A stretch of DNA of 64,000 nucleotides from Hydrogenimonas sp. Lineage in GTDB: Bacteria; Campylobacterota; Campylobacteria; Campylobacterales; Hydrogenimonadaceae. A program made the position numbers and the translations under genes. How positions within the stretch are numbered: the stretch's first letter is position 1; the number at the start of each line of letters is the position of its first letter. Where the stretch lies: assembly GCA_003978765.1 (NCBI GenBank), contig QNYO01000025.1:7303-71302 (forward strand), written 5' to 3'. This document shows, one piece after another, positions 49,530 to 60,714 of the stretch. The notes beneath the pieces are model-generated. The model had not been told where the DNA came from. It saw nothing but the letters and a program-made list of their open reading frames with translations, and made no database searches.

Positions 49530-49548
49530 GCTTGGCGACTCACAAACT

Positions 49549-50616
49549 TCACCCTCTTCCCAATATCATATCAAAATTATCAACCTTTGTTGAACTCTTA
49601 TGAAGTCGTTCACATACATCACAATCCCAACACTCAAATTTACAATTTTTAATATAAGTATTCCATTTCTCAAACATCTTCTCTTCATAACCAAACTTTT
49701 TGACAATATCATATAATGGTTTAAAAACTACATCCTCACCATCTGCATAGCGTTTTACAATCTCCATTGACTGTTTCATAAGTCCAAAATCACTTCTTCC
49801 ATGAAGTTTAAAAATCTGAATATAGTTTAAGAGTTCCTCCATATCTTTTCGATATATTGGCATATTGGCATTTTGCAAGTGATACCATGGAATCTGTTGA
49901 TGCCATGCTGGACATGTTTTCATACCAAGTTCCGTTTTGAAATAGTTTATCGCCGTATCTTTAGAGTTTGAGTTATTATAATGGTAGTGTTCACTCATGG
50001 CAGGACATAACCCCTTACACCACTCATTAGCAAGAAGAATCATTGGGATATTGTATCTTTCATAAGCCTTCTTTAATCGTTTTAAGTTATCCAAATCTCT
50101 TAAATTATACCGATCAATATTGATTGCATCAAAACCAACTTTTGCATAATCAACATACTCTTGTGGTCTTGAAACTCTTTTTAAGACAGTATTTTTAATT
50201 GTCATCTCTGGAAACTCTTTTTTAAGAAGACCATTGAGCATCCAGCTATAATGAGGAATGGTAATCGATCGAAGTCCTCGTTTATAGAGTGGTTTCAACT
50301 TTTCTATAAATACATAGAGATTTTGAATTGTTGGTTCTACTAGTGTATTATTAAATGTAGCAGAAACTTTAATCCCATATTTTTCTTGAATCTGAAGCAT
50401 TACTGAAATAACTCGTCGATTCTGTGCTTCAACACCCTCTTTTGCAAGAACAGCAATATTAGCACAACCCATTGCATCATTCACAAAAGGAGGCATAATA
50501 TAGGCAAAATAGATATCATAAATATAGGAGTGATACTGCTTAATAAAAGGAAGAAACTCTTTATAAAAAAAAGTTTTATCCATCTGTGTAAAGAAAGGAA
50601 GTGAGAAAATTTTCAT
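49549..50616 (-). CDS. Cys-rich peptidase U32-like (putative Fe-S) protein, last gene of the cas operon
   Basis: LLANEWCKGLCP, TCP, FKLHGR and C-terminal CKFECWDCDVC; RBS AAGGA; 21 nt after the csm5 stop; low GC. Confidence 0.6.
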   Translation of the reverse strand: MKIFSLPFFTQMDKTFFYKEFLPFIKQYHSYIYDIYFAYIMPPFVNDAMGCANIAVLAKEGVEAQNRRVISVMLQIQEKYGIKVSATFNNTLVEPTIQNLYVFIEKLKPLYKRGLRSITIPHYSWMLNGLLKKEFPEMTIKNTVLKRVSRPQEYVDYAKVGFDAINIDRYNLRDLDNLKRLKKAYERYNIPMILLANEWCKGLCPAMSEHYHYNNSNSKDTAINYFKTELGMKTCPAWHQQIPWYHLQNANMPIYRKDMEELLNYIQIFKLHGRSDFGLMKQSMEIVKRYADGEDVVFKPLYDIVKKFGYEEKMFEKWNTYIKNCKFECWDCDVCERLHKSSTKVDNFDMILGRG

Positions 50617-50637
50617 AATAGTTCCTTAATATAAGCT

Positions 50638-51951
50638 TTATATATGCTTACTTTTAGCAAAAACTTCGTGATATTCATCCCTACCAATCCGCTCACAAAG
50701 GAGCCATCCAAAAGGGAGCATTTGGTTTTCACTCTCCTCTTTGTCAGAGAAGAACCAGCTGGTGGTCTCTTCGGTAAGGTAACACTTAATAGCAAGGCGT
50801 TTGATCGTTTTTGCTGTCTCTTCAAGCTCTGATGGTTTTTTCATGAAGTGATAGCTTTGAAGTTGTGTACGCAACTCTTTGGGATTTAGGAGCTTCTCAT
50901 CTGTCATCAAACGCTCAACAGTCTCATGATTCTCAAAGTAACTCTTCTTATAAAGCCGTTCAATTTTGGCTTCAATCTGCTCAAATGCACTATCACTTTT
51001 ATGTTTGAGATCGCAAAGTGTCACCATAATGGCACGCAGTCCCTCAATCGTCACAGAGCGTGCCCCACTATAGCGTCCGACACGAACAATAAAACGGTTC
51101 TTATCAAGCTTTAATGAAGCGATCTTCTGTTTAAATGTTTCACTCACATAGCGTGGTGTCATCTCCTGATGCGAAAAGAGTGAGGCTAAGATAGGAAGGT
51201 AGTGTTCATTGCAAGCATCGGCAATTGTCTCAAACTCTCGTAAAAGGCGTGGTTCAAAAGATTTTAACTCCAAACGTCCAACAAAGAGTGTCTCTGGCAT
51301 CATCGCTTCAACCCGTATCGAGGGTCCATGTCCCCCCTCTTCAAAACGCTCTTTGTTGAGTGCATAGCCAATCTTTGTATCCGATTGGATGGGGTGAAGA
51401 TCTGAAAGGAGAAGATTTTTCATAGGGCTAAGTGTAGGGTTACGCAACTCTTTAAAGTGTTGTCTCCATGCAGAAAAATCTTTTTGATACAACATACTCT
51501 GATAAGCGGTTGAGATCGCTCCTTTGAGACTACTACCTGAGATATAGGGCATCTTAAGATTCGTAAGCCGTTGGGTACGCATCATTTGAAACTGTTTAAA
51601 CCCCCTCTCTTTATGCTCTCGGTCATACGCTTTATAATCTCCAATTTTGGTTTCATACTCCTTGACAATCCCTTCGGAGACAGGAACAACATGGTGAGCA
51701 AGTGAGATAGCAATATCGTGGTGTGCCTGAATAAAAGCGTGAAGACGGATAAAGATGCCTGGGTCGGCTTGAGCAACTAAGTCGTTGAAGATATGGCGTT
51801 TTTGCTCATCAAGTTCACGGTAAAAGGCAAAAGGGTCAAACTCATAGAGGTGGTGGTTATGAATAATAAAGTTGGTTGGCTCATAATACTCACCTGTTCC
51901 AATATGGACAGGTGAAAGAAGCCTTACTTTTAGATAGTAGCTCTCTTTCAT
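50638..51951 (-). CDS. csm5: Type III-A CRISPR RAMP Csm5
   Basis: LSPVHIGTG, PYISGSSLKGAI, RVGRYSG, LPFGW. Confidence 0.92.
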   Translation of the reverse strand: MKESYYLKVRLLSPVHIGTGEYYEPTNFIIHNHHLYEFDPFAFYRELDEQKRHIFNDLVAQADPGIFIRLHAFIQAHHDIAISLAHHVVPVSEGIVKEYETKIGDYKAYDREHKERGFKQFQMMRTQRLTNLKMPYISGSSLKGAISTAYQSMLYQKDFSAWRQHFKELRNPTLSPMKNLLLSDLHPIQSDTKIGYALNKERFEEGGHGPSIRVEAMMPETLFVGRLELKSFEPRLLREFETIADACNEHYLPILASLFSHQEMTPRYVSETFKQKIASLKLDKNRFIVRVGRYSGARSVTIEGLRAIMVTLCDLKHKSDSAFEQIEAKIERLYKKSYFENHETVERLMTDEKLLNPKELRTQLQSYHFMKKPSELEETAKTIKRLAIKCYLTEETTSWFFSDKEESENQMLPFGWLLCERIGRDEYHEVFAKSKHI

Positions 51952-52835
51952 GCCTCAATACCCCCTATGGCTGTTACAATCGCATACCCTTGATGAACCG
52001 TATCGGGATAAGCAGGAGAGATGCCACGAACACCTCGTCCAATATAGGAGAGATTCATCACCTCATCCATTCTCACAACTGCTCCACACCCTGCCATCAA
52101 CAGTGGGTGTTTAAATGGGTTTTGATAGGCTCTTAATGCCCCATGCTTTCCAAAATGAACCGATAGCTCATACCAATATTGCTGACACTTTACCCCCTCT
52201 AAGACAGAGGCTGAAAGGGTCATAAAGTACTCCCCTGTTTGATGTAACTCTGCCCTTTGCAGAGGCTCCACACAAAATCGCCCTTTCCCAGTCGTGCTAT
52301 CTTTACCATAGCCATAGACTCCAACAAATGCCAAGACCTCTTCAAGTTCGTGCCGACTCAATCGTGACTCATCAACCAAAAAGTAGATCTCTTTGTCACT
52401 CAGTTGGTAGTTTGTTACGTTGTAAGAAGCAAACCGATCACCATCCATACGGAAGTTTCGATAGTCAAGATGATGATGAGCTTGAACAAAATTGCGGTCA
52501 CGATACCCCACCTCATCATCACTCTTTGCTTCATGATACGCACCTTTAACAAGGGCTTCTGGTTGCATCCAAACCTTTTTGGCATCTTCTCGTCTCTTTA
52601 AAGGGGAGAGTCCAAGCATGCGTGGTGGAAGGGTTGGTTTAGGTAAAAAACCTGGAGCAAAAGGGTCACTGACCACCATAAATGGCTCAGATTCATACCC
52701 CTCTAAAAGCTCTTTCAGACGCGCTTCACCATACTGAAAGAGAATCCCCCAACAGAGCTGTCCAAAGAGTGTGTCACCACGCAATGGTGTTGCAAAGGGG
52801 GATTCTGGAATGAGTCTGGTTTTATAGAGTTGCAT
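51948..52835 (-). CDS. csm4: Type III-A CRISPR RAMP Csm4
   Basis: GDTLFGQLCW, SDPF, GYGKDSTTGKGRF. Confidence 0.92.
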   Translation of the reverse strand: MQLYKTRLIPESPFATPLRGDTLFGQLCWGILFQYGEARLKELLEGYESEPFMVVSDPFAPGFLPKPTLPPRMLGLSPLKRREDAKKVWMQPEALVKGAYHEAKSDDEVGYRDRNFVQAHHHLDYRNFRMDGDRFASYNVTNYQLSDKEIYFLVDESRLSRHELEEVLAFVGVYGYGKDSTTGKGRFCVEPLQRAELHQTGEYFMTLSASVLEGVKCQQYWYELSVHFGKHGALRAYQNPFKHPLLMAGCGAVVRMDEVMNLSYIGRGVRGISPAYPDTVHQGYAIVTAIGGIEA

Positions 52836-52838
52836 ACC

Positions 52839-53519
52839 CTACTCACTCAAATGGAACTTAACACGTCCATAACCGCGTGAGCCATTCCCTCCAAGGTAAT
52901 CCTCTTCAACCAAATGCAATCCAAGCTTCACCATATTCAAAAGCTTATCTTCATCATCCAACCCATCAAAGACTTTAATACGAATATCAAGATTGAAAGA
53001 GACACCAGCAGGTACACGCTCAACTTGTCGGGGGTTTTGTGCTGTTCCCTTTTTACGATCAACCATATTCTCATACTTCGCTTCACTTAAGACCATATGC
53101 TTTGAGCTTTCACTGAGCAGACAATCCCCCACACTAATACGGGTCATACCATAGGGGCTATCTGGTGTTGGATCACCAAAAAGCTTCAAAAGTGTCTCTG
53201 CCTCTTCACGCTTTTTTGGATCGATCATAAAGATCTCTTCACGATTCAAGAATTTTCGAGAAAAGGGTTGCCCCTCTTCATAGGGATACTTTCGCCCCAT
53301 ACGCACCAACCCCAAATGCCACTCTAAGAGTGTACGCATCTTTCCTTTGAGTGAACTGCCTGGAATATAGGGCTCATAGATCCCCTTTTTATTCGGGTTA
53401 ACATGACGAATAACACTATTATCGATTCCACCTATCCGCATCGTGTCATCCCCCCGACCGATATGCAATCCTGTCAGCAGTTCGATCTCTCCTTTTACTT
53501 TTCTAATCTTTAGCATCAA
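52839..53519 (-). CDS. csm3: Type III-A CRISPR backbone RNase Csm3
   Basis: TGLHIG, IGGIDNSVIR (catalytic Asp), PYIPGSSLKGK.R, PRQVERVPAG, YLGGNGSRGYG. Confidence 0.95.
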   Translation of the reverse strand: MMLKIRKVKGEIELLTGLHIGRGDDTMRIGGIDNSVIRHVNPNKKGIYEPYIPGSSLKGKMRTLLEWHLGLVRMGRKYPYEEGQPFSRKFLNREEIFMIDPKKREEAETLLKLFGDPTPDSPYGMTRISVGDCLLSESSKHMVLSEAKYENMVDRKKGTAQNPRQVERVPAGVSFNLDIRIKVFDGLDDEDKLLNMVKLGLHLVEEDYLGGNGSRGYGRVKFHLSE

Positions 53520-53905
53520 TCTCTCCCTTTATAAAATCCAAGAACCGCTTCAAAAAAGAGTTTAAAAATTTTGAGTTTCTCAGGAGAATCAACCTGTGCA
53601 ATACACTGTGCCATCATCTCAGCGAAACGGCAATTGAGCACTTCACGTGTTACCCCATAGGCCACTTTAGAGTTCAACATCTTTACAAATGGTTCAATCT
53701 CATCCCACGGTTGTGTCTCACGTGCATCATAATATTTTAAGATTTGGTCATAAAAACTGCGTACCTGTGCCTTCTTTGTTCTCTTATAACGCTCTCTTCC
53801 ATACTCATCTTGGCACTTATCCCCTTCAATCAAAGAAGCCCAATATTTGGCTGTTTCATTAAAGAGTTCAGGATCGACTCTATAGTCAAGAATAATCTTC
53901 TCCAT
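53516..53905 (-). CDS. csm2: Type III-A small subunit Csm2
   Basis: QVR.FY, KVAY, FFEAVLGFY; located between cas10 and csm3. Confidence 0.9.
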   Translation of the reverse strand: MEKIILDYRVDPELFNETAKYWASLIEGDKCQDEYGRERYKRTKKAQVRSFYDQILKYYDARETQPWDEIEPFVKMLNSKVAYGVTREVLNCRFAEMMAQCIAQVDSPEKLKIFKLFFEAVLGFYKGRD

Positions 53906-53909
53906 CCAC

Positions 53910-55511
53910 CTATCTCCTTTGGTAAATAAACTCACTCAAAATCATTTTACACGCTTCAGGTGACGCTTCAATCCACTGATTCAACATATTTAAAAGCTCT
54001 TGTGCCCAAATATTCTGTTCCTCATCACTCTCTTGAAGATATTCAAAGATATTACGCTGAAAGAGATAGTTAAGGCGTGAACGCCACATTGCCCCTTCAA
54101 GAAGATGATCAGGATCTTTCATACTTTGACGCAATACAACAATATTAAAGAGTTGTTCAATGAAATGCATCGATAACCCTGTTAAACGCTTCTGTGCAGT
54201 ATCAAGGGCTTGATAGAGTGCTTTGGCTTCACGATAGGTTTTCCATGCCACTGTTTCACCAAAAAGGGTGATGGCAGATTTGCCTTGAAAGGCTTTCGAG
54301 GCTTCAAGTGCAGCGTTACACGACTGAACAAGATACTCCATAGGTGTGGAAGGGTTGGCAATCACAATCCCCATAGAGAGTGAGAGTCTATCGTATGTAA
54401 AGCGTCTAAACGCCTCTTCAATCTGCTGTGCCAAATCTATAATCTGATCCCACGCTCCTATGAGAAAAAAGTGACCAGCCTCTGCGAAGAGTATCGAGGT
54501 ATTAGGATAGCTTTGGTACATGAGGTGTGATAGATCCTGCTTGAAAAACTGGTCAAGTGATGCCATAAAGCTATGGAGATGTTCAAAAGAGGCTTTTAAA
54601 TGGTTCTGCTCTAAAAAGATCTCCAGATTATCAATATCTCCCTTTAAGAGTCCCAACGCTTTAAGCCCATGATCATTGGTTGGAGAACTCCGCTCTGCCA
54701 GATCGTTCAATGATGCGATCTCTTCTCTCTCATTAGTCGTACAATAAGTGATCTGCGAGAGATCCATCAACGCAATGGCATCTGAACGATCATCAAAGGC
54801 GATACCATAGCCATCAAAAAAGTCTATCTCTCCATCATTACGTACCAGTGCTACACTCTTGTTTTCTACCAGTGACTCACCAAGCTTCATCCACTGTTGA
54901 CATAGATCACAGATAGCCTCTCTCTTCCCTTGACGAAGGTTACAGATTGGACAAAGATTCTGATGATCGATATCTTCATCATACGCTAAGAGTGCCTGTT
55001 GGTTGGGAAGATCAAACTTTTGATACCATGCCTGCTCTATACGTCCTCTCATCTCTTCTTGAAATTCTCGATAAGCTACTCGATCCTGCCAGATAGCTGA
55101 CGTACAACTCATCCAGACAAGACTCAATCCACCCAAACCATAGAAGTGATTCAAACAGAAGCTATTGAAACTTTGACGAAGCTCCTCTAAAGTTTGGTAA
55201 TCGATTGTAGGAGAGAGAATCTCAAATCCTCTACTCGAACATGAGAGAATAGCATCTGGTGAGAGACCAAGCTGATCACAGATGCGATAGGCTGATAGGT
55301 GCATAAAGAGCTCGATATAGACTGACTTTGCCTGTAATATCTGATGGGCATGTTGGGTTGAGACTCCTCTAAAAAGAAAGCTCTCCAGACCAAAAAAGTG
55401 ACCAGAGATGAGTAGATAATCGTCTGAATCATCACATGGGGGTACCTTCTTTTGAAAGATCGGTATGAAGTCACCAAATGTTGTAGAAAATGTCTCTTCA
55501 AACCGACTCAT
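53910..55511 (-). CDS. cas10: Cas10/Csm1, HD-less with degenerate Palm active site
   Basis: Palm1 LISGHFFG, zinc finger CPIC..CDLC, KGDIDNL, FAEAGHFFLIGAW in place of FAGGDDLFLIGAW; only 533 aa. Confidence 0.88.
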   Translation of the reverse strand: MSRFEETFSTTFGDFIPIFQKKVPPCDDSDDYLLISGHFFGLESFLFRGVSTQHAHQILQAKSVYIELFMHLSAYRICDQLGLSPDAILSCSSRGFEILSPTIDYQTLEELRQSFNSFCLNHFYGLGGLSLVWMSCTSAIWQDRVAYREFQEEMRGRIEQAWYQKFDLPNQQALLAYDEDIDHQNLCPICNLRQGKREAICDLCQQWMKLGESLVENKSVALVRNDGEIDFFDGYGIAFDDRSDAIALMDLSQITYCTTNEREEIASLNDLAERSSPTNDHGLKALGLLKGDIDNLEIFLEQNHLKASFEHLHSFMASLDQFFKQDLSHLMYQSYPNTSILFAEAGHFFLIGAWDQIIDLAQQIEEAFRRFTYDRLSLSMGIVIANPSTPMEYLVQSCNAALEASKAFQGKSAITLFGETVAWKTYREAKALYQALDTAQKRLTGLSMHFIEQLFNIVVLRQSMKDPDHLLEGAMWRSRLNYLFQRNIFEYLQESDEEQNIWAQELLNMLNQWIEASPEACKMILSEFIYQRR

Positions 55512-56350
55512 TGATACTCCTTAAGCGGTGTCAGCCTATAATCTCCCAGTCCAAAAACTGTCTGCTTGCCTGCCCCAATCACTTCACCTATCTTCAAATA
55601 ACCGTATGATCGCTCATCCAAACCCCGAATCACCACACTTCCTATCACCCCTCCTAATTTCATACGACACTTCTGCCGATTGGAGTAGCGATAGAGATCA
55701 AGATAGTGAAGATCACTCTTCTCTATCTCACCTTCAATGCGGTATCCAAGCTTTTGTGAAGGCAACCCTTTAAGGGCACGATAGCGATGGTGAATCGTCG
55801 TAATAAGTGTTGGTAGTGAAGGGGTATGATAGATGAGATGATTATTCATCTTCATACGGAGTGGCATACGAAACTCCAACCGTACATCACGATAACACTC
55901 CTCGACAGAAGTCGAGCATGGTTGCACCCGATCTATTGGAAGAAATCTCTCTCCATCATAGACAAGATGTACTCCAACATGAATATTGGCTACCTTCACC
56001 TTTTGTTGATCTTTTCCCAATCCCGTCTCTTCAAGTGACTTTTTCATCGCTGAGAGAATATAGGGCATCTGTGCAACCCGATCTTCAAAGAGATAGATAG
56101 AAAAAGCCAGATGCTTCATACCCAGTGCCGAGACAATACGATAAGGGTGGTAGAGGTTCACTTTTTCAAAAAAGTCGTAATAGAGACATGTTGCAGTGGC
56201 AAAACATCCACTGCATTGATATGAGGGGTTGATACAGACCATCCGTTTCAATGTCACGCCCAATGCCCCACGCAACATCGAACCTGAAAAGAAGGGTGGT
56301 TGATACGCTGTAACTGCCTCAATATCTATTTTTATCCATGTAATTTTCAT
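55508..56350 (-). CDS. cas6: CRISPR pre-crRNA endoribonuclease Cas6
   Basis: GSMLRGALG, Cys cluster CINP...C..C.....C.Y, RYSNRQ, G-rich loop GAGKQTVFGLG. Confidence 0.92.
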   Translation of the reverse strand: MKITWIKIDIEAVTAYQPPFFSGSMLRGALGVTLKRMVCINPSYQCSGCFATATCLYYDFFEKVNLYHPYRIVSALGMKHLAFSIYLFEDRVAQMPYILSAMKKSLEETGLGKDQQKVKVANIHVGVHLVYDGERFLPIDRVQPCSTSVEECYRDVRLEFRMPLRMKMNNHLIYHTPSLPTLITTIHHRYRALKGLPSQKLGYRIEGEIEKSDLHYLDLYRYSNRQKCRMKLGGVIGSVVIRGLDERSYGYLKIGEVIGAGKQTVFGLGDYRLTPLKEYQ

Positions 56351-56488
56351 TAAAACCTAAAAACAATAATTTAAAACTATTATACAACTAAAATCCTTTT
56401 ATAAAGTTTTGATCTATTTCAAATAACACAAATATATGATGGTAGTGATAATATTTTGTGATAGGAGATAGAGAGAGTGAAGGGGCTT

Positions 56489-56512
56489 AAAGCGACAGAC
56501 ACGATGTCGCCT
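56489..56512 (-). terminator. Putative terminator downstream of the mini-array
   Basis: Minus strand GCGACA-tcgtgtc-TGTCGC followed by TTT. Confidence 0.5.
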
Positions 56513-56539
56513 ATTGCCTCTTCCAATTGATACTGATAG

Positions 56540-56642
56540 AGAGAAATCCCCTTAAAACCGGGTCTAATTATTCAATATCAAACATAAATGAGACGACTTA
56601 TAGATGTCTCAATCCCCTTGAAAACGGGTCGAATCTATATCA
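56540..56642 (-). CRISPR. CRISPR mini-array: two degenerate repeats and one ~29-nt spacer
   Basis: AATCCCCTTAAAACCGGGTC (56545-56564) and AATCCCCTTGAAAACGGGTC (56611-56630) are 18/20 identical and 66 nt apart; CCC/GGG hairpin core; the minus-strand repeat ends ATTGAGAC (8-nt handle-like); adjacent to cas6. Confidence 0.75.
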
Positions 56643-56719
56643 TCAGCTTTCATGAATGATCTACTTTAACAAGTTAAAACTAATTCTACTCTTAAAGTTG
56701 GTATTTCAATCTTTTATCA

Positions 56720-59059
56720 TTAAATAATTGCATCTTGTGTTAACATTTCACACAACTGCTTAACCTCCTTTTTATTGAGAATACTCTCAATATTGGATGT
56801 TGCTCTCAATGTTTTCATCACAGTTAGATCCTCTTCAACCGAGATGACAATGACGGGCGTTTTAATCCCCTCATCCTCCATATATTGTAAAACCTCTGCA
56901 CAGATCCCATCGCTCAAATAGAAATCCAAAATCACCAAATCAAAGCTTTCAACTGTTAACAACTTCTTAGCACCATTATTGGAGTCGGTAAAAGTGAGTC
57001 GAAACTTATCTTGCAGATACTCTTCAAAAATTTCACGAGAGTTTTGGCTATCTTCCACAATCAAAATATGTTTTGCCGTTTCGGGTGCTTTAAAGAGTGA
57101 GTAGGAGTTGGATGGTGGATCAATGGTAGGGATTGTCAGATGGAAGCAACTCCCCTTTCCTGCTTCACTCTCCACCCAGATACGACCTCGATGAAGCTCT
57201 TCAACAATCTTTTTACAGATCATCAACCCAAGTCCACTGCCTGCTTCACTCTTTTGGTAAACATTTTCGATCTGAACAAATGGCTGAAAGAGTTTAAGCT
57301 GATCCTCTTTAGAGATTCCGATTCCTGTATCACAGATAGAGAAGTGGTAAGAGTTGCTATCCTCTTCATAATAGACATGTAAAGAGACCTCACCACCTTT
57401 GGGGGTAAATTTAATGGCATTACTCATTAAGTTAAGCAAAACTTGCTTTAAAAGCATGGGATCAACCACCATGGTCATCGATTGATCAACCTTTAAGTTG
57501 AGTTGGATATCCTTTTGATTTGCTAATGGACGTGTAAGCGTTTCAACCTCTTTAATAATTGTCTTGACATCACTCAAAGTTGGATTAAAACGCATTTTAC
57601 CCGCTTCAAGTTTCGCAAAATCCAAAATAGTATTGACAAGATTGAGAAGATTGTTGCCCGCAATATTGATCTTCTCAATATAGGCCTTAATATGCTCAGG
57701 CGTATCTGGACGCATCATAAGGATTTGGGAAAATCCATTGATAGCATTGAGAGGTGTTCGCAACTCATGGGACATATTGGCCAAAAAGACATCTTTGGCG
57801 CGATTGGCACTCTCTGCTTTATCGGCAAACTCCATCAATGACTGTTCACGCTCTTTAATAGAGAAATTCAGTTCAAGTGCTTCAAGGAGTAGAATCAAAA
57901 TCTCTTCAAGATAGAGTTTATTGACCAAAGGTTTGAGTTGAATGCCCAAATAGAAGCTATACTGTTTGTATTGAATATGTTTGGTAATATCAAAAGTGTT
58001 ACCATCCAATGGCTCTGTTTGCACAACAATCTCTTCAATCGCCCATGGCATCACCGACTTAAGACTCTCTTTAACACGTGCCATCACATTTTTCTGAATA
58101 TCATACTCTGAAATTAAGATCAAATCGCGTTGAGAAAAGATTGTATGGATTGCACGGATCGCTTTCAATCCTGCATGTAACGAAAGAAAACCGCTGGTCG
58201 AAAACTCTTTAAGGGGACGATCCATCAACTCATAGAGTTGATTGGTTACTCGCGTCAATGCATCAAAATGGTCACGTATTTTCTGTTTATTCCCCTCTTC
58301 AACCATACGTTTAAAGGCTGTAAGTTCGTGATGCCATGCCATATGGAGTGATTTAAGCTCTTCAATATCGATACCTAATGTTTTAAGACGCTCTAATTGA
58401 TCACTCAAACGCTCTAATAGTTGGTGAAACTTACACTCGAATGGATCTTCAATTATTGTACTGAGTTGTTGGGTTGTATGATCGGGATGCTTCATATAGG
58501 CTTCAATCAAAGAGTAGTTCTCTTTATGAATGGCAAAAGCACTATAGACCTCATCAATAATCTCGATAGATGAGAGTTGACGCATACGATCCGATGATTG
58601 GTAGTAGGCATGGTAGGTACTATCAATAATGATATACTCCACCATTGCAAAAAATTTGCTAATCATCTCATAGTGGTGTTTAATCACTGGATCAACCAGT
58701 GACATTTTATAAAGAAGACGATTCAGTGCCCAAAAGCCATAGGTCACTTTACCACTCTCCAGTCGTATGCCAGCATGAATTGCACCAACCTTTTGTATCC
58801 GGCTCAAATAGGCTTGATCAATAGGCGCTGAAAAGATAAAGATGATAAACTCTTGCATCGTTTTTAGCAGACGATCGATATCGGTATGTCGAAAATAGCG
58901 TACCATCTGCTCATCATCTTTGAGATACTCATGATAGAACTTCTCAATCAAAATTGAGCTCATAACTGAAAGCTTATCATGAAGTGCCTCTCGTGCCTCA
59001 ATATCCTCTGCGGTAATATGGAACTGTCGAAGTAGATTCTCAATCGTCAACTGGTGCAT
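56720..59059 (-). CDS. Globin-coupled hybrid histidine kinase (protoglobin-CZB-HisKA-HATPase-REC)
   Basis: Globin FY..., VG.IH proximal His; CZB-like H, ECKF, H..WH; ANMSHELRTPLN, DTGIG, GSGLGL; C-terminal REC. Confidence 0.88.
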   Translation of the reverse strand: MHQLTIENLLRQFHITAEDIEAREALHDKLSVMSSILIEKFYHEYLKDDEQMVRYFRHTDIDRLLKTMQEFIIFIFSAPIDQAYLSRIQKVGAIHAGIRLESGKVTYGFWALNRLLYKMSLVDPVIKHHYEMISKFFAMVEYIIIDSTYHAYYQSSDRMRQLSSIEIIDEVYSAFAIHKENYSLIEAYMKHPDHTTQQLSTIIEDPFECKFHQLLERLSDQLERLKTLGIDIEELKSLHMAWHHELTAFKRMVEEGNKQKIRDHFDALTRVTNQLYELMDRPLKEFSTSGFLSLHAGLKAIRAIHTIFSQRDLILISEYDIQKNVMARVKESLKSVMPWAIEEIVVQTEPLDGNTFDITKHIQYKQYSFYLGIQLKPLVNKLYLEEILILLLEALELNFSIKEREQSLMEFADKAESANRAKDVFLANMSHELRTPLNAINGFSQILMMRPDTPEHIKAYIEKINIAGNNLLNLVNTILDFAKLEAGKMRFNPTLSDVKTIIKEVETLTRPLANQKDIQLNLKVDQSMTMVVDPMLLKQVLLNLMSNAIKFTPKGGEVSLHVYYEEDSNSYHFSICDTGIGISKEDQLKLFQPFVQIENVYQKSEAGSGLGLMICKKIVEELHRGRIWVESEAGKGSCFHLTIPTIDPPSNSYSLFKAPETAKHILIVEDSQNSREIFEEYLQDKFRLTFTDSNNGAKKLLTVESFDLVILDFYLSDGICAEVLQYMEDEGIKTPVIVISVEEDLTVMKTLRATSNIESILNKKEVKQLCEMLTQDAII

Positions 59060-60101
59060 TGTCGATGCTTCCTAATAGATTGGTTTTGTTAAAGACTTTA
59101 ATGGAATTAAAGCCTTCATTGGTAATCTCACCAATACTGGTAATACCAAAAATGGGCTGCATGCCCGATGTTTCAGCGGCAATCGCCTCAATCTCTTGAA
59201 TAAAGTCATCTCCCATATAAAGCACCCTTGAGATACAGTCAAAGAGGAGATGAATATGGTTGGGATGAGGGGTAAGTGTGAGCCGTGCATTATCCACAGC
59301 CGCCTCAATCAAACCAGCATGATCACCCTTCATAATATAGACGGTCTCATTGGTTGCAATCGATGAGACCATTAAGAGTGCCTGTTCATCGGTTGGTTGA
59401 AGTGGATCACGGACAATAAACTCATTTTGAGTATAAGAGAGAATTCCAAAGGGGTAAGCTTTTGCCACATCAAAAAAGTTCTCAGATGTAATCTCCTGAC
59501 CATCAAGATCACGCAACACCTTCGCATAGACTTCAAAAGCGGGTTCATTGTTGAGTTCATAGATAATATTATCTTTCGATTTCGTTACAACCAAAGGGCC
59601 ATAGAGTGGCTTCCATCCATGCTTAACCCCCACATGAATGGGTGCTTCAATCTCGACAATGAGTGAGTGACACTGATAACTCTGCTCTTGATCAAAAATT
59701 GATGGCATCGGTGTTAAACTTTTTCCCCCTACCCCAGAACCAAAGAGAGTTTGTGTCGTTAAGAGAGTACCAAACTGCTCCAAAAAGGGTTCAAAAGAGC
59801 TATTGAAAAGATCACTAAACATCATTAAGGTCGTATTGGCTCTCAATGACACCTCAGGTGGCCTCTTCATATCCAACAGATAGAAGTTAACATGATCACG
59901 TTCATCAAAACGGATCTCTAAAATCCCCTCATGATAGAGTTGGTTATTGGCAATAATATGGGGAACAATAGCACCATAAAAAGGTTGTTCTACCTCTTGA
60001 CATAACTGTGCAATATCGACCGTTTCAGTAACCAGATAGAGACGTGGATCGCTCTTTGATCGCGTAATCTCATTAGGAGAATGGTAGTAGGTAATCTTCA
60101 T
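59040..60101 (-). CDS. FIST domain sensor protein
   Basis: HGWKP, IYELNNEPAF.VY, YPFG, DCISR, SIGEI, FNKT. Confidence 0.88.
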   Translation of the reverse strand: MKITYYHSPNEITRSKSDPRLYLVTETVDIAQLCQEVEQPFYGAIVPHIIANNQLYHEGILEIRFDERDHVNFYLLDMKRPPEVSLRANTTLMMFSDLFNSSFEPFLEQFGTLLTTQTLFGSGVGGKSLTPMPSIFDQEQSYQCHSLIVEIEAPIHVGVKHGWKPLYGPLVVTKSKDNIIYELNNEPAFEVYAKVLRDLDGQEITSENFFDVAKAYPFGILSYTQNEFIVRDPLQPTDEQALLMVSSIATNETVYIMKGDHAGLIEAAVDNARLTLTPHPNHIHLLFDCISRVLYMGDDFIQEIEAIAAETSGMQPIFGITSIGEITNEGFNSIKVFNKTNLLGSIDNAPVDD

Positions 60102-60466
60102 TAATGGCTCTCAATCCATGGTATAAGTTTTTGTTGTAATATCGTTGCGGAAAGGGGTTTGGAGATATAGTCATCAAATCCGTGCATCAAAATCTTCTCT
60201 CGATCACCCTCCACTGCCAATGCCGTCACGGCAATAATTGGCCCCTTATAGTGCCGTTCATTACGCAATTTATCATACAACATAAACCCATCAATGGTCT
60301 GCATATCAATATCCGTCAAAACCAAGTCAAACTCAAAAGGCTCCAACTGAAGGGCTTCTACAGCAGAGGCTAAGACAGTGAGTGTGACATGAGGAAACTG
60401 CAGTTTAATCATATCGTGCAAAACGATCTGATTAAACTCATCATCTTCAATAATAAGAATATGCAT
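60101..60466 (-). CDS. Single-domain response regulator (DivK-like)
   Basis: ILIIEDD, LTDIDM, IAVTALA..GDRE, YISKP; start after AAGGAG. Confidence 0.9.
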   Translation of the reverse strand: MHILIIEDDEFNQIVLHDMIKLQFPHVTLTVLASAVEALQLEPFEFDLVLTDIDMQTIDGFMLYDKLRNERHYKGPIIAVTALAVEGDREKILMHGFDDYISKPLSATILQQKLIPWIESH

Positions 60467-60714
60467 TAAAATACTCTCCTTTCCCCTCCATCGAAAAAAA
60501 AATAGAATTTTATTGATTATAGCAGATGATTCTATAACAATCATAGTGTGTATGCAATCTTTTTGCAATCATCTACGATAGAGTTGCATGGATAAGAAGC
60601 TCTAACGATACCAACCCTATAAAAATTCAATAAATCAGCTTCTATCAAGCAGACCAAAGTATGCTATGATAAAACTCTTTTTCCACCACACGACCCACAC
60701 ATCTAAGGATAGAA

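What the first reader, a model, noticed from the sequence alone, without database searches (positions are those of the whole stretch)
49549..56690. Derived type III-A CRISPR-Cas system: signalling-dead, DNase-less Cas10, single-spacer guide and a non-canonical accessory gene
Seen in sequence: an intact, tightly coupled cas6-cas10-csm2-csm3-csm4-csm5 operon. Cas10 starts about 30 aa before Palm1, so it has no HD nuclease. Palm1 Asp is replaced by His (SGHFFG) and GGDD by EAGH (54471-54482). Csm3 retains the IGGID catalytic Asp (53421-53423). There is no cas1, cas2, csm6/csx1 or ring nuclease in the window. Established: HD gives ssDNase activity, GGDD gives cOA/SAM-AMP synthesis, and the Csm3 Asp gives target RNA cleavage. 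Inference: the complex can only bind and cut RNA. Both Cas10 activities are gone, yet no frame is broken, the zinc finger is kept and the shortened cas10 is ATGA-coupled to cas6. This fits exaptation as an RNA-guided regulator or scaffold better than random decay.
Basis: partly seen in the sequence, partly recalled or inferred. Interest (0 to 1): 0.92.

Follow-up and report, generated by a model that had tools for sequence, protein, structure and literature searches.

The report
Type III-A CRISPR with dead Cas10
A vent bacterium carries a complete type III-A CRISPR complex whose large subunit has lost both of its enzyme activities and now evolves far faster than its partners, so the system can probably only cut one matching RNA.

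Summary
The sequence observations hold. On the minus strand lie a two-repeat, one-spacer mini-array, then cas6-cas10-csm2-csm3-csm4-csm5. All five Csm proteins pass NCBIfam III-A cut-offs. Cas10 (533 aa) has no HD domain. It reads SGH for the Palm1 GD motif and EAGH for GGDD. Csm3 keeps its catalytic Asp.

New findings:
- Cas10 sits in an HD-less, cyclase-active clade, so HD loss came first.
- Its only close relative (67% identity) also lacks GGDD but reads GDRA. Of 150 library representatives, 145 keep GGDD or GGDE.
- Against that relative, Cas6 and Csm2-5 are 90-94% identical, so Cas10 alone is hyperdivergent. It still has no stops, and its replacements are more conservative than random mutation gives.
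- The first repeat's 3' half matches working arrays of related loci.
- The 355-aa "accessory" is a low-GC U32-peptidase-like gene. Its family is common in phage contigs, was never found beside csm genes, and one strain variant appears to lack it.
- The MAG (80% complete) also holds cas4-cas2-cas1 and larger arrays on small contigs.

Best reading: a reduced, RNA-cleaving-only Csm complex with Cas10 kept as a scaffold. No target was found, so the regulator idea is untested. This is a new variant of a known kind.

The parts
56606..56640 (-). Repeat 1 of the mini-array. The 3' 25 nt (56630-56606) are GACCCGTTTTCAAGGGGATTGAGAC and end in the predicted 8-nt crRNA tag ATTGAGAC. The 5' 10 nt are degenerate.
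   Evidence: Repeat pair found. The 3' half matches 19 array repeats in L066 with one mismatch. Its last 14 nt differ by one base, and its last 12 nt are identical, to the 29 repeats of the same-genus locus L074. Boundaries were set by my alignment to those repeats.
56577..56605 (-). Single spacer of 29 nt, if repeat 2 starts at ATTGAATA. It would be 37 nt if only the conserved repeat core is counted.
   Evidence: The repeat 2 boundary comes from likeness to L072 repeats. No listed difference in a 97%-identical strain. No match elsewhere.
56540..56576 (-). Repeat 2. Its 5' half and stem resemble L072-type repeats, but the 3' tag is mutated to ATTTCTCT.
55508..56350 (-). cas6 (280 aa)
   Evidence: PF10040 46.9 bits vs cut-off 25. 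PADLOC Cas6 5.7e-50. TIGR01877 is below its cut-off. 56-58% identical to Cas6 of same-genus III-A loci. It is the only Cas6 found in the MAG.
53910..55511 (-). cas10/csm1 (533 aa). No HD domain. Palm1 reads SGHFFGL, the zinc finger is kept, and Palm2 reads EAGH instead of GGDD.
53516..53905 (-). csm2 (129 aa from the ATG; a GTG at 53935 would give 139 aa)
   Evidence: TIGR01870 and PF03750 over cut-off. The 129-aa form is the one on record.
52839..53516 (-). csm3 (225 aa from the ATG), with the catalytic Asp kept in IGGID
   Evidence: TIGR02582 177 bits. The alignment shows the Asp in the window, in 2 close relatives and in 5 of 6 control loci.
51948..52835 (-). csm4 (295 aa)
   Evidence: TIGR01903 83.1 bits vs cut-off 55. 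PADLOC Csm4 7e-77.
50638..51951 (-). csm5 (437 aa)
   Evidence: TIGR01899 46.3 bits vs cut-off 38.3. PADLOC Csm5 1.2e-20.
49549..50616 (-). Neighbouring gene, judged not part of the system: a U32-peptidase-like TIM-barrel protein with invariant Cys residues (355 aa, GC 32%).

Best explanation
This is a reduced type III-A (Csm) system that is still under selection but can only bind and cut RNA.

Shown: the genes for Cas6, Cas10, Csm2, Csm3, Csm4 and Csm5 are intact and translationally coupled. Cas10 has no HD nuclease domain, and both palm motifs carry non-acidic replacements. Csm3 keeps its catalytic Asp.

Inferred mechanism:
- The mini-array is transcribed with, or just ahead of, the operon.
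- Cas6 cuts repeat 1 and leaves the 8-nt tag AUUGAGAC on one crRNA.
- Cas10 and Csm4 hold the tag, Csm3 and Csm2 form the backbone, and Csm5 caps it.
- A complementary RNA is bound and cut by Csm3 at 6-nt steps.
- No ssDNA cleavage and no cyclic-oligoadenylate or SAM-AMP signal follows, and the MAG shows no CARF effector.

Cas10 is kept as a structural subunit under much weaker constraint than its partners. The lineage came from an HD-less, signalling-only III-A whose relatives carry a CARF gene right after csm5. It then lost the cyclase site and the effector. Whether the single crRNA serves defence against one element or control of a transcript is open. crRNAs from the other array of the MAG may also be used.
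For: Family membership and motif states.

Rarity of the dead state:
- 18 of 18 Cas10 relatives from the same order keep GDF(F/W/Y)GIQ and GGDD.
- Of 150 best cluster representatives, 144 have GGDD, 1 GGDE, 1 GGEG, 1 GDRA (P0122), and 3 lack the region.

Shared ancestry of the dead state: the window and P0122 pair with 100% SH-aLRT on a stem of 0.99 changes per site. They lie inside a 26-row HD-less clade, next to P0123-P0125, which keep GGDD.

Selection:
- Against the proteins attributed to one 23,651-nt contig, identities are Cas6 90.4%, Cas10 67.0%, Csm2 93.8%, Csm3 94.2%, Csm4 92.2%, Csm5 94.3%.
- A control pair of active loci gives Cas6 85, Cas10 92, Csm2 92, Csm3 96, Csm4 94, Csm5 89.
- 200 random-mutation simulations down to 67% identity give a mean of 10.5 stops (minimum 3), against 0 observed.
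- The same simulations give a mean BLOSUM62 of replacements of -0.54 +/- 0.13, against -0.01 observed.
- All 3 differences in cas10 between the window and a contig of the probable source run are synonymous.

Guide:
- The 3' half of repeat 1 equals working repeats.
- In a 97%-identical strain, 0 of 11 listed differences in 56487-56720 fall in 56566-56636, which covers the spacer and the repeat 1 core.
- In a more distant strain, the piece 56545-56619 aligns at 80% or better while both flanks do not.

Lost effector: HD-less GGDD+ loci L072 and L073 have a TM1812/DxTHG CARF gene directly after csm5. None was found in this MAG.
Against: - No target of the spacer was found. The best non-self match in the genome is 21 of 29, equal to shuffled spacers. 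The exact 28-mer has no hit in viral or JGI metagenome contigs. Phage and plasmid blastn hits have E of 5 or more.
- Shmakov et al. 2023 (PMC10120712, passages read) judged mini-arrays near type III loci to be degraded, non-functional repeats. They report them in 10% of III-A loci.
- No dN/dS could be computed, because no relative's DNA could be fetched.
- The sharp jump in divergence at the cas10 borders could instead reflect import of a diverged cas10 allele by recombination.
- That the six relatives' proteins share one contig is inferred only from equal 'longest contig' values.
- The MAG is 80% complete, so a second type III locus, a CARF effector or a target could lie in the missing part.
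- Nothing here shows that the complex assembles or is expressed.
Confidence: 0.55

Rival explanations
1. This is a decaying remnant. After the HD domain, the cyclase site, the CARF effector, the adaptation genes and most of the array were lost, the operon has no function. It is intact only because too little time has passed.
For: Many parts are lost at once: no cas1 or cas2 in the locus, an array of one spacer with a damaged second repeat, and no effector. Cas10 diverges fast. Mini-arrays near type III loci are usually read as degraded (PMC10120712, passages read). No target was found.
Against: Two lineages that differ by 33% in Cas10 both keep full-length frames (531 and 533 aa), where random mutation predicts about 10 stops. 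Cas6 and Csm2-5 are 4 to 6 times less diverged than Cas10. The Csm3 catalytic Asp is kept in 3 of 3 members of the group. Translational coupling is intact.
Confidence: 0.17
2. This is an ordinary antiviral effector that takes its guides in trans from the large array elsewhere in the genome (repeat ending GGGATTTGAAAC, next to cas4-cas2-cas1). The local mini-array is an irrelevant relic. Immunity rests on RNA cleavage alone or on an effector in the unassembled 20%.
For: The MAG holds cas4-cas2-cas1 plus 17 repeats on C90 and 11 repeats of the same array on C36. No Cas3 over cut-off and no second Cas6, Cas10 or RAMP locus was found that could own that array. The last 8 nt of that repeat share 6 of 8 bases with the local tag (my comparison).
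Against: The two repeats differ in stem and length. C90 is a 3.1-kb contig that starts 36 nt before cas4, so its own effector genes may simply be cut off, and binning of so short a contig is uncertain. Its Cas1 scores best with the I-B model (284.5 bits, under that model's cut-off of 304.1). Cas10 cannot signal, so a trans effector would not be activated.
Confidence: 0.18
3. Cas10 has gained a new activity or partner. The fast change would be positive selection, for example an arms race with a viral inhibitor or a new catalytic centre using the two new His residues.
For: Both lost Asp positions are His in the window. Divergence is spread over the whole protein, at 11-21 differences per 50 residues.
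Against: The replacements are not shared. The relative has D at the Palm1 position and GDRA for GGDD, so no new site is conserved. No candidate partner gene is conserved beside the operon.
Confidence: 0.05

Closest known systems
Canonical type III-A Csm systems (Staphylococcus epidermidis, Streptococcus thermophilus; solved complexes such as 7uzw and 6ifk)
   Same: Same gene set and order, cas6-cas10-csm2-csm3-csm4-csm5. Cas10 aligns to the solved Csm1 chains from Palm1 to the C-terminal domain. The Csm3 Asp is kept.
   Different: No HD domain, GGDD replaced by EAGH, Palm1 Asp replaced by His, no csm6 or CARF gene, no cas1 or cas2 in the locus, and a one-spacer array.
HD-less, cyclase-only III-A loci of other Campylobacterales (L072, L073; proteins P0123-P0144)
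   Same: Cas10 of about 510-550 aa starts about 30 aa before Palm1 with a similar N-terminus. This is the clade in which the window's Cas10 nests.
   Different: Those keep GDFxGIQ and GGDD. L072 and L073 carry a TM1812/DxTHG CARF gene after csm5, and L073 also carries Csx20.
Subtypes with inactivated or lost Cas10 palm domains: III-C, III-F, III-G, III-H, III-I (Makarova et al. 2025, PMC12669027, passages read; Hoikkala et al. 2024, PMC11229360, passages read)
   Same: Reductive evolution: loss of cOA synthesis goes together with loss of CARF effectors and of adaptation genes.
   Different: III-G and III-H keep an apparently active HD and lack the Cas7 catalytic Asp, and are predicted to cut DNA. 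The present locus is the reverse (no HD, Asp kept). By gene content and Cas10 tree position it is III-A, where cyclase domains are called near-ubiquitous.
Type III-E (Cas7-11) and III-I
   Same: The predicted output is RNA cleavage by Cas7 domains without Cas10 enzymatic activity.
   Different: Those are fused single-protein effectors derived from III-D. The present system is a multi-subunit Csm complex that still keeps a full-length Cas10.
Regulatory mini-arrays in CRISPR-cas loci (Shmakov et al. 2023, PMC10120712, passages read)
   Same: Two repeat-like sequences around one spacer, beside cas genes.
   Different: Those with support are in type I and V loci, with partial matches to cas promoters. 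For type III the authors found no conserved positions and no targets. In the present locus the mini-array is the only local array and is kept in related strains, but no target was found either.

Membership tests
Type III-A (Csm) CRISPR-Cas effector module | Cas10/Csm1 large subunit | tested here: met
   TIGR02578 268.4 bits vs cut-off 170. PF22335 and PF18211 over cut-off.
Type III-A (Csm) CRISPR-Cas effector module | Csm2 small subunit plus Csm3, Csm4 and Csm5 RAMP proteins in one operon | tested here: met
   All four NCBIfam equivalogs are over their cut-offs. PADLOC agrees for Csm4 and Csm5, the two of these four that were submitted.
Type III-A (Csm) CRISPR-Cas effector module | Catalytic Asp of Csm3 for target RNA cleavage | tested here: met
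   D33 in IGGID aligns with the Asp of 5 of 6 control Csm3 proteins and 2 close relatives. The role of the residue is from established knowledge, not a call.
Type III-A (Csm) CRISPR-Cas effector module | HD nuclease domain at the Cas10 N-terminus (present in 65% of III-A loci per PMC11229360) | tested here: not met
   The match starts at profile position 218 of 753. Palm1 is at residue 36. HD-bearing relatives show LHDIGK about 240 aa upstream of Palm1.
Type III-A (Csm) CRISPR-Cas effector module | Cyclase site: Palm1 Asp and GGDD, or an accepted variant with acidic residues at positions 3 and 4 | tested here: not met
   The window has SGH and EAGH. EAGH is not among the variants listed as active in PMC11229360.
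Type III-A (Csm) CRISPR-Cas effector module | Cognate CRISPR array processed by Cas6 | tested here: inconclusive
   There are two repeats and one spacer. Repeat 1 has a canonical 3' half, and repeat 2 has a mutated tag. Processing was not tested.
Peptidase U32 family (for the 355-aa neighbour) | Match to Pfam PF01136 | tested here: not met
   No PF01136 hit even at E up to 10.
Peptidase U32 family (for the 355-aa neighbour) | U32-type TIM-barrel fold | tested here: met
   AF2 model with pLDDT 92.3. The top Foldseek PDB hit is 5d88, U32 peptidase Mk0906, E 5.2e-7, TM 0.49/0.68. Atlas neighbours are named Peptidase U32, but PF01136 is on only 20% of members in two clusters.
CRISPR-associated accessory gene (for the 355-aa neighbour) | Repeated genomic association with cas genes | tested here: not met
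   0 of 21 genome loci with a relative have a Csm or Cas6 match in the DNA held, up to 8 kb each side and often less. It was found in 0 of 21 other genomes of the genus. There is no PADLOC match. A contig joint in run X4 skips it.

The most novel reading that the evidence does not exclude
The Csm complex has been exapted as a collateral-free, single-guide RNA knock-down device. One fixed crRNA, kept unchanged across strains, directs Csm3 cleavage of one specific transcript of the host or of a resident element. The operon may be read through from the protoglobin histidine-kinase two-component operon that ends 79 nt (85 nt to the conserved core) upstream of repeat 1. This would be a natural post-transcriptional regulator built from a type III system, with Cas10 reduced to a scaffold.
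Probability: 0.15. Interest if true: 0.8.

Novelty: new variant of a known kind. Interest (0 to 1): 0.55.

Why it matters
Type III systems are thought to owe most of their protection to Cas10, through its DNase or through cOA signalling. The papers read here place palm-dead Cas10 in subtypes III-C, III-F, III-G and III-H (lost in III-I). [quoted passage not shown]

The present locus is a III-A lineage that lost both activities. It keeps the RNA-cutting backbone conserved while Cas10 drifts about five times faster. That is a natural experiment on two questions:
- What is the minimal useful type III machine?
- What does Cas10 contribute structurally once its chemistry is gone?

If the complex works, it would be a compact multi-subunit RNA-targeting module without collateral activity. 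It would also offer a test of whether RNA cleavage alone is worth keeping.

Tried and rejected
- **Fetching relatives' DNA for dN/dS and spacer comparison.** The search for related loci with Cas10 in genome contigs found none. The Cas10 pair alignment in metagenome contigs found none. The Csm5 pair alignment in genome contigs found none.
- **Spacer target.** No hit for the exact 28-mer in viral contigs or metagenome contigs. Only chance-level blastn hits in phages and plasmids. The own-genome best is 21 of 29, equal to shuffles. Exact-match scans cannot see targets with mismatches.
- **Expression.** No RNA holder was listed. Two libraries labelled metatranscriptomic (X2, X3) are flagged 'probably DNA'. 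Their contigs cover parts of csm2-csm5, and I draw no conclusion on expression from this.
- **Promoters, terminators and RNA families.** The scan gave 18 promoter-like sites against 17.3 expected, and 2 terminator-like sites against 5.0 expected. Rfam gave nothing relevant.
- **Loci sharing the repeat motif (L060-L069).** No homologues of the window's Cas proteins lie within the DNA held.
- **The two-component operon as a conserved neighbour.** The FIST protein has a match in only 1 of 21 other genus genomes, so nothing follows.
- **The search of earlier findings** was not open.
- **Not run.** Complex prediction and a Cas10 structure model were not run. Cas10-Csm4 is a textbook pair whose pass would add little.
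- **Rejected idea.** The two new His residues do not form a new conserved site, because the relative does not share them.


Full report
**What is there**

On the minus strand of 49549-56640 lie, in order:
- a mini-array,
- cas6 (56350-55508),
- cas10 (55511-53910),
- csm2 (53905-53516),
- csm3 (53516-52839),
- csm4 (52835-51948),
- csm5 (51951-50638),
- a 355-aa gene (50616-49549).

NCBIfam III-A equivalogs pass their cut-offs for Csm1, Csm2, Csm3, Csm4 and Csm5. Cas6 passes Pfam and PADLOC models. The overlaps ATGA (cas6/cas10, csm4/csm5) and TGATG (csm2/csm3) are in the sequence. RadA lies convergent downstream. Upstream on the same strand is a response regulator-FIST-protoglobin histidine kinase operon.

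**Cas10**

- The Csm1 model matches only from profile position 218 of 753.
- Solved Csm1 chains align from their residue 213-250 onward.
- Palm1 starts at residue 36.
- In 18 of 18 Cas10 relatives from genomes of the same order, the aligned motifs are GDF(F/W/Y)GIQ and GGDD. 3 of the 18 are HD-less proteins of about 510 aa.
- Among 13 closest metagenome proteins, 12 keep GGDD. The exception is P0122 (67% identity, 531 aa), which reads GDFFDMQ and GDRA.
- An exhaustive search of 1.84 billion cluster representatives gave 150 best hits: 144 with GGDD, 1 GGDE, 1 GGEG, 1 GDRA (P0122), and 3 fragments without the region. Palm1 lies within the first 80 residues in 23 of the 138 where it aligned.
- The zinc-finger cysteines are kept.

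**Origin**

A 45-row Cas10 tree pairs the window with P0122 (100% SH-aLRT) on a stem of 0.99 changes per site. The pair lies within a five-member group with P0123-P0125 (HD-less, GGDD intact), inside a 26-row HD-less clade. So HD loss preceded cyclase loss.

Two HD-less GGDD+ loci of the order (L072, L073) carry a TM1812/DxTHG CARF gene directly after csm5, and L073 also carries Csx20. The same-genus HD+ locus L074 carries Csx20, cas1 and a 29-repeat array. In this MAG I found no TM1812-type CARF and no Csx20.

**Selection**

Cluster look-ups attribute close homologues of every operon protein to contigs whose longest is 23,651 nt. That they share one contig is my inference. Identities to the window are:

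| Protein | Identity |
|---|---|
| Cas6 | 90.4% |
| Cas10 | 67.0% |
| Csm2 | 93.8% |
| Csm3 | 94.2% |
| Csm4 | 92.2% |
| Csm5 | 94.3% |
| 355-aa protein | 97.5% |
| Kinase (from another contig) | 97.3% |
| FIST protein (from another contig) | 97.5% |

- Cas10 differences are spread evenly, at 11-21 per 50 residues.
- In a control pair of active loci (L070/L071), Cas10 is as conserved as its partners: 92 against 85-96.
- Against the same-genus loci L074 and L075, the window's Cas6, Csm2, Csm3 and Csm4 are about as distant as those two loci are from each other. Its Cas10 is 33-34% identical where theirs is 60%.
- Random mutation of the window's cas10 down to 67% identity needs about 296 changes. 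It creates a mean of 10.5 stops (minimum 3 in 200 runs), and none is observed.
- Observed replacements are more conservative than simulated ones. Mean BLOSUM62 is -0.01 against -0.54 +/- 0.13, and the share scoring 0 or more is 0.63 against 0.48.
- All 3 cas10 differences between the window and a contig of the probable source run are synonymous.

I read this as follows. The backbone is under ordinary purifying selection. Cas10 is kept as a protein but under much weaker constraint. Import of a diverged cas10 allele by recombination would give the same protein pattern, and only DNA can exclude it.

**The guide**

- Repeat 1 ends GACCCGTTTTCAAGGGGATTGAGAC. This differs by one base from 19 array repeats in L066.
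- Its last 14 nt differ by one base, and its last 12 nt (GGGGATTGAGAC) are identical, to the 29 repeats of L074.
- Repeat 2 has an L072-like 5' half, but its last 8 nt are changed.
- The spacer is then 29 nt.
- In a 97%-identical strain (run X3), 21 of the contig's 22 differences are listed. 11 of them lie in 56487-56720, and none lies in 56566-56636. My estimate of the chance of that under even spread is about 0.02.
- In a more distant strain (run X4, another study), cas6 is about 86% identical at the nucleotide level. There the piece 56545-56619 aligns at 80% or better while both flanks do not.
- No target was found.
- Shmakov et al. (PMC10120712, passages read) consider type III mini-arrays degraded relics. 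That is the default reading, and it is not excluded.

**The rest of the genome**

The MAG has 1.61 Mb in 94 contigs and is 80% complete.

- Contig C90 (3.1 kb) holds cas4-cas2-cas1 and 17 repeats of a different 29-nt repeat, running to the contig end.
- C36 starts with 11 more of those repeats.
- C92 has 5 repeats of a 36-nt repeat.
- No second Cas10, RAMP or Cas6 locus was found. No Cas3 scored over cut-off, and no Cas9 was found.
- Absence from an incomplete MAG is not shown.

**The 'accessory' gene**

- It has no Pfam, NCBIfam or PADLOC match.
- 273 homologues were scored, many fused to Methyltransf_24.
- A confident model (pLDDT 92.3) has the U32 peptidase Mk0906 as its best PDB match.
- The family has invariant Cys residues at 200, 204, 235, 325, 329, 332 and 335.
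- 0 of 21 genome loci with a relative show Csm or Cas6 matches. There the neighbours are TolC-like/ABC/HlyD exporters or radical-SAM genes.
- 275 of 485 pattern matches in IMG/VR encode a relative. Atlas neighbours are mostly viral.
- It is absent from the 21 other genomes of the genus.
- Its GC is 32%, against 39-46% for its neighbours.
- One X4 contig joins 49533 to 50654 and skips it (depth 3).
- I judge it a horizontally acquired neighbour.

**Comparison with what is known**

- Hoikkala et al. (PMC11229360, passages read) find HD in 39%, a cyclase in 92% and both in 34% of 1113 loci. By my arithmetic, about 3% have neither. They call cyclases near-ubiquitous in III-A and III-B.
- Makarova et al. 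[quoted passage not shown] They note that it goes with loss of CARF effectors and adaptation modules.
- III-G and III-H keep HD and lack the Cas7 Asp.
- The present locus shows the same reductive trend inside III-A with the opposite outcome: RNA cleavage kept and HD gone.
- The supplements of both papers were closed, so I cannot say that no such III-A locus is listed there.

**Verdict**

The finding is real and uncommon, but it is a variant of a known trend. The accessory claim falls, and the regulator claim is untested.

Noticed in passing
G000 contigs C90 (1-3101) and C36 (1-760); loci L003, L013: There is a cas4-cas2-cas1 module, and its Cas1 scores best with the I-B model. It is followed by an array of a 29-nt repeat ending GGGATTTGAAAC, with 17 copies to the end of C90 and 11 more at the start of C36. 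No matching effector genes were found in the MAG.
   Followed up: partly
G000 contig C92 (1-330); locus L014: A third array has 5 copies of a 36-nt repeat with 30-nt spacers, in the style of type II-C arrays. The Cas9 family search of the MAG found nothing.
   Followed up: partly
L072:7530-8261 (-): In one HD-less, GGDD-positive locus with a CARF gene, Csm3 reads IGGIN where the others have IGGID. That system may signal without cutting its target RNA.
   Followed up: no
window 56720-60568 (-): A response regulator, a FIST protein and a protoglobin-HisKA-HATPase-receiver hybrid kinase form a tight operon on the same strand. It ends 79 nt (85 nt to the conserved core) before repeat 1, so read-through into the mini-array and cas operon is possible.
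   Followed up: partly
window 49538 and 56487 (run X3): In run X3 the high-depth contigs (62x and 79x) stop or turn unlike the window at 49538 and 56487. Only 2-4x contigs cover the csm genes there. The abundant strain may carry something else, or nothing, between radA and the mini-array while keeping the mini-array itself.
   Followed up: no
window 49549-50616 (-); loci L039-L059, L082-L161: The U32-like TIM-barrel family with a conserved Cys cluster is often fused to a Methyltransf_24 domain and is frequent in viral contigs. In Campylobacterales it sits next to TolC/ABC-C39/HlyD exporters or radical-SAM genes. Its own function is unknown and may be worth a separate look.
   Followed up: partly
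protein P0293: A 709-aa Cas10 representative reads GGEG in place of GGDD. It is the only other non-acidic variant among the 150 best hits.
   Followed up: no
window 56491-56509 (-): A short hairpin (GCGACA, 7-nt loop, TGTCGC) followed by TTT lies between repeat 2 and cas6. It might end a separate mini-array transcript. The terminator scan did not list it.
   Followed up: no
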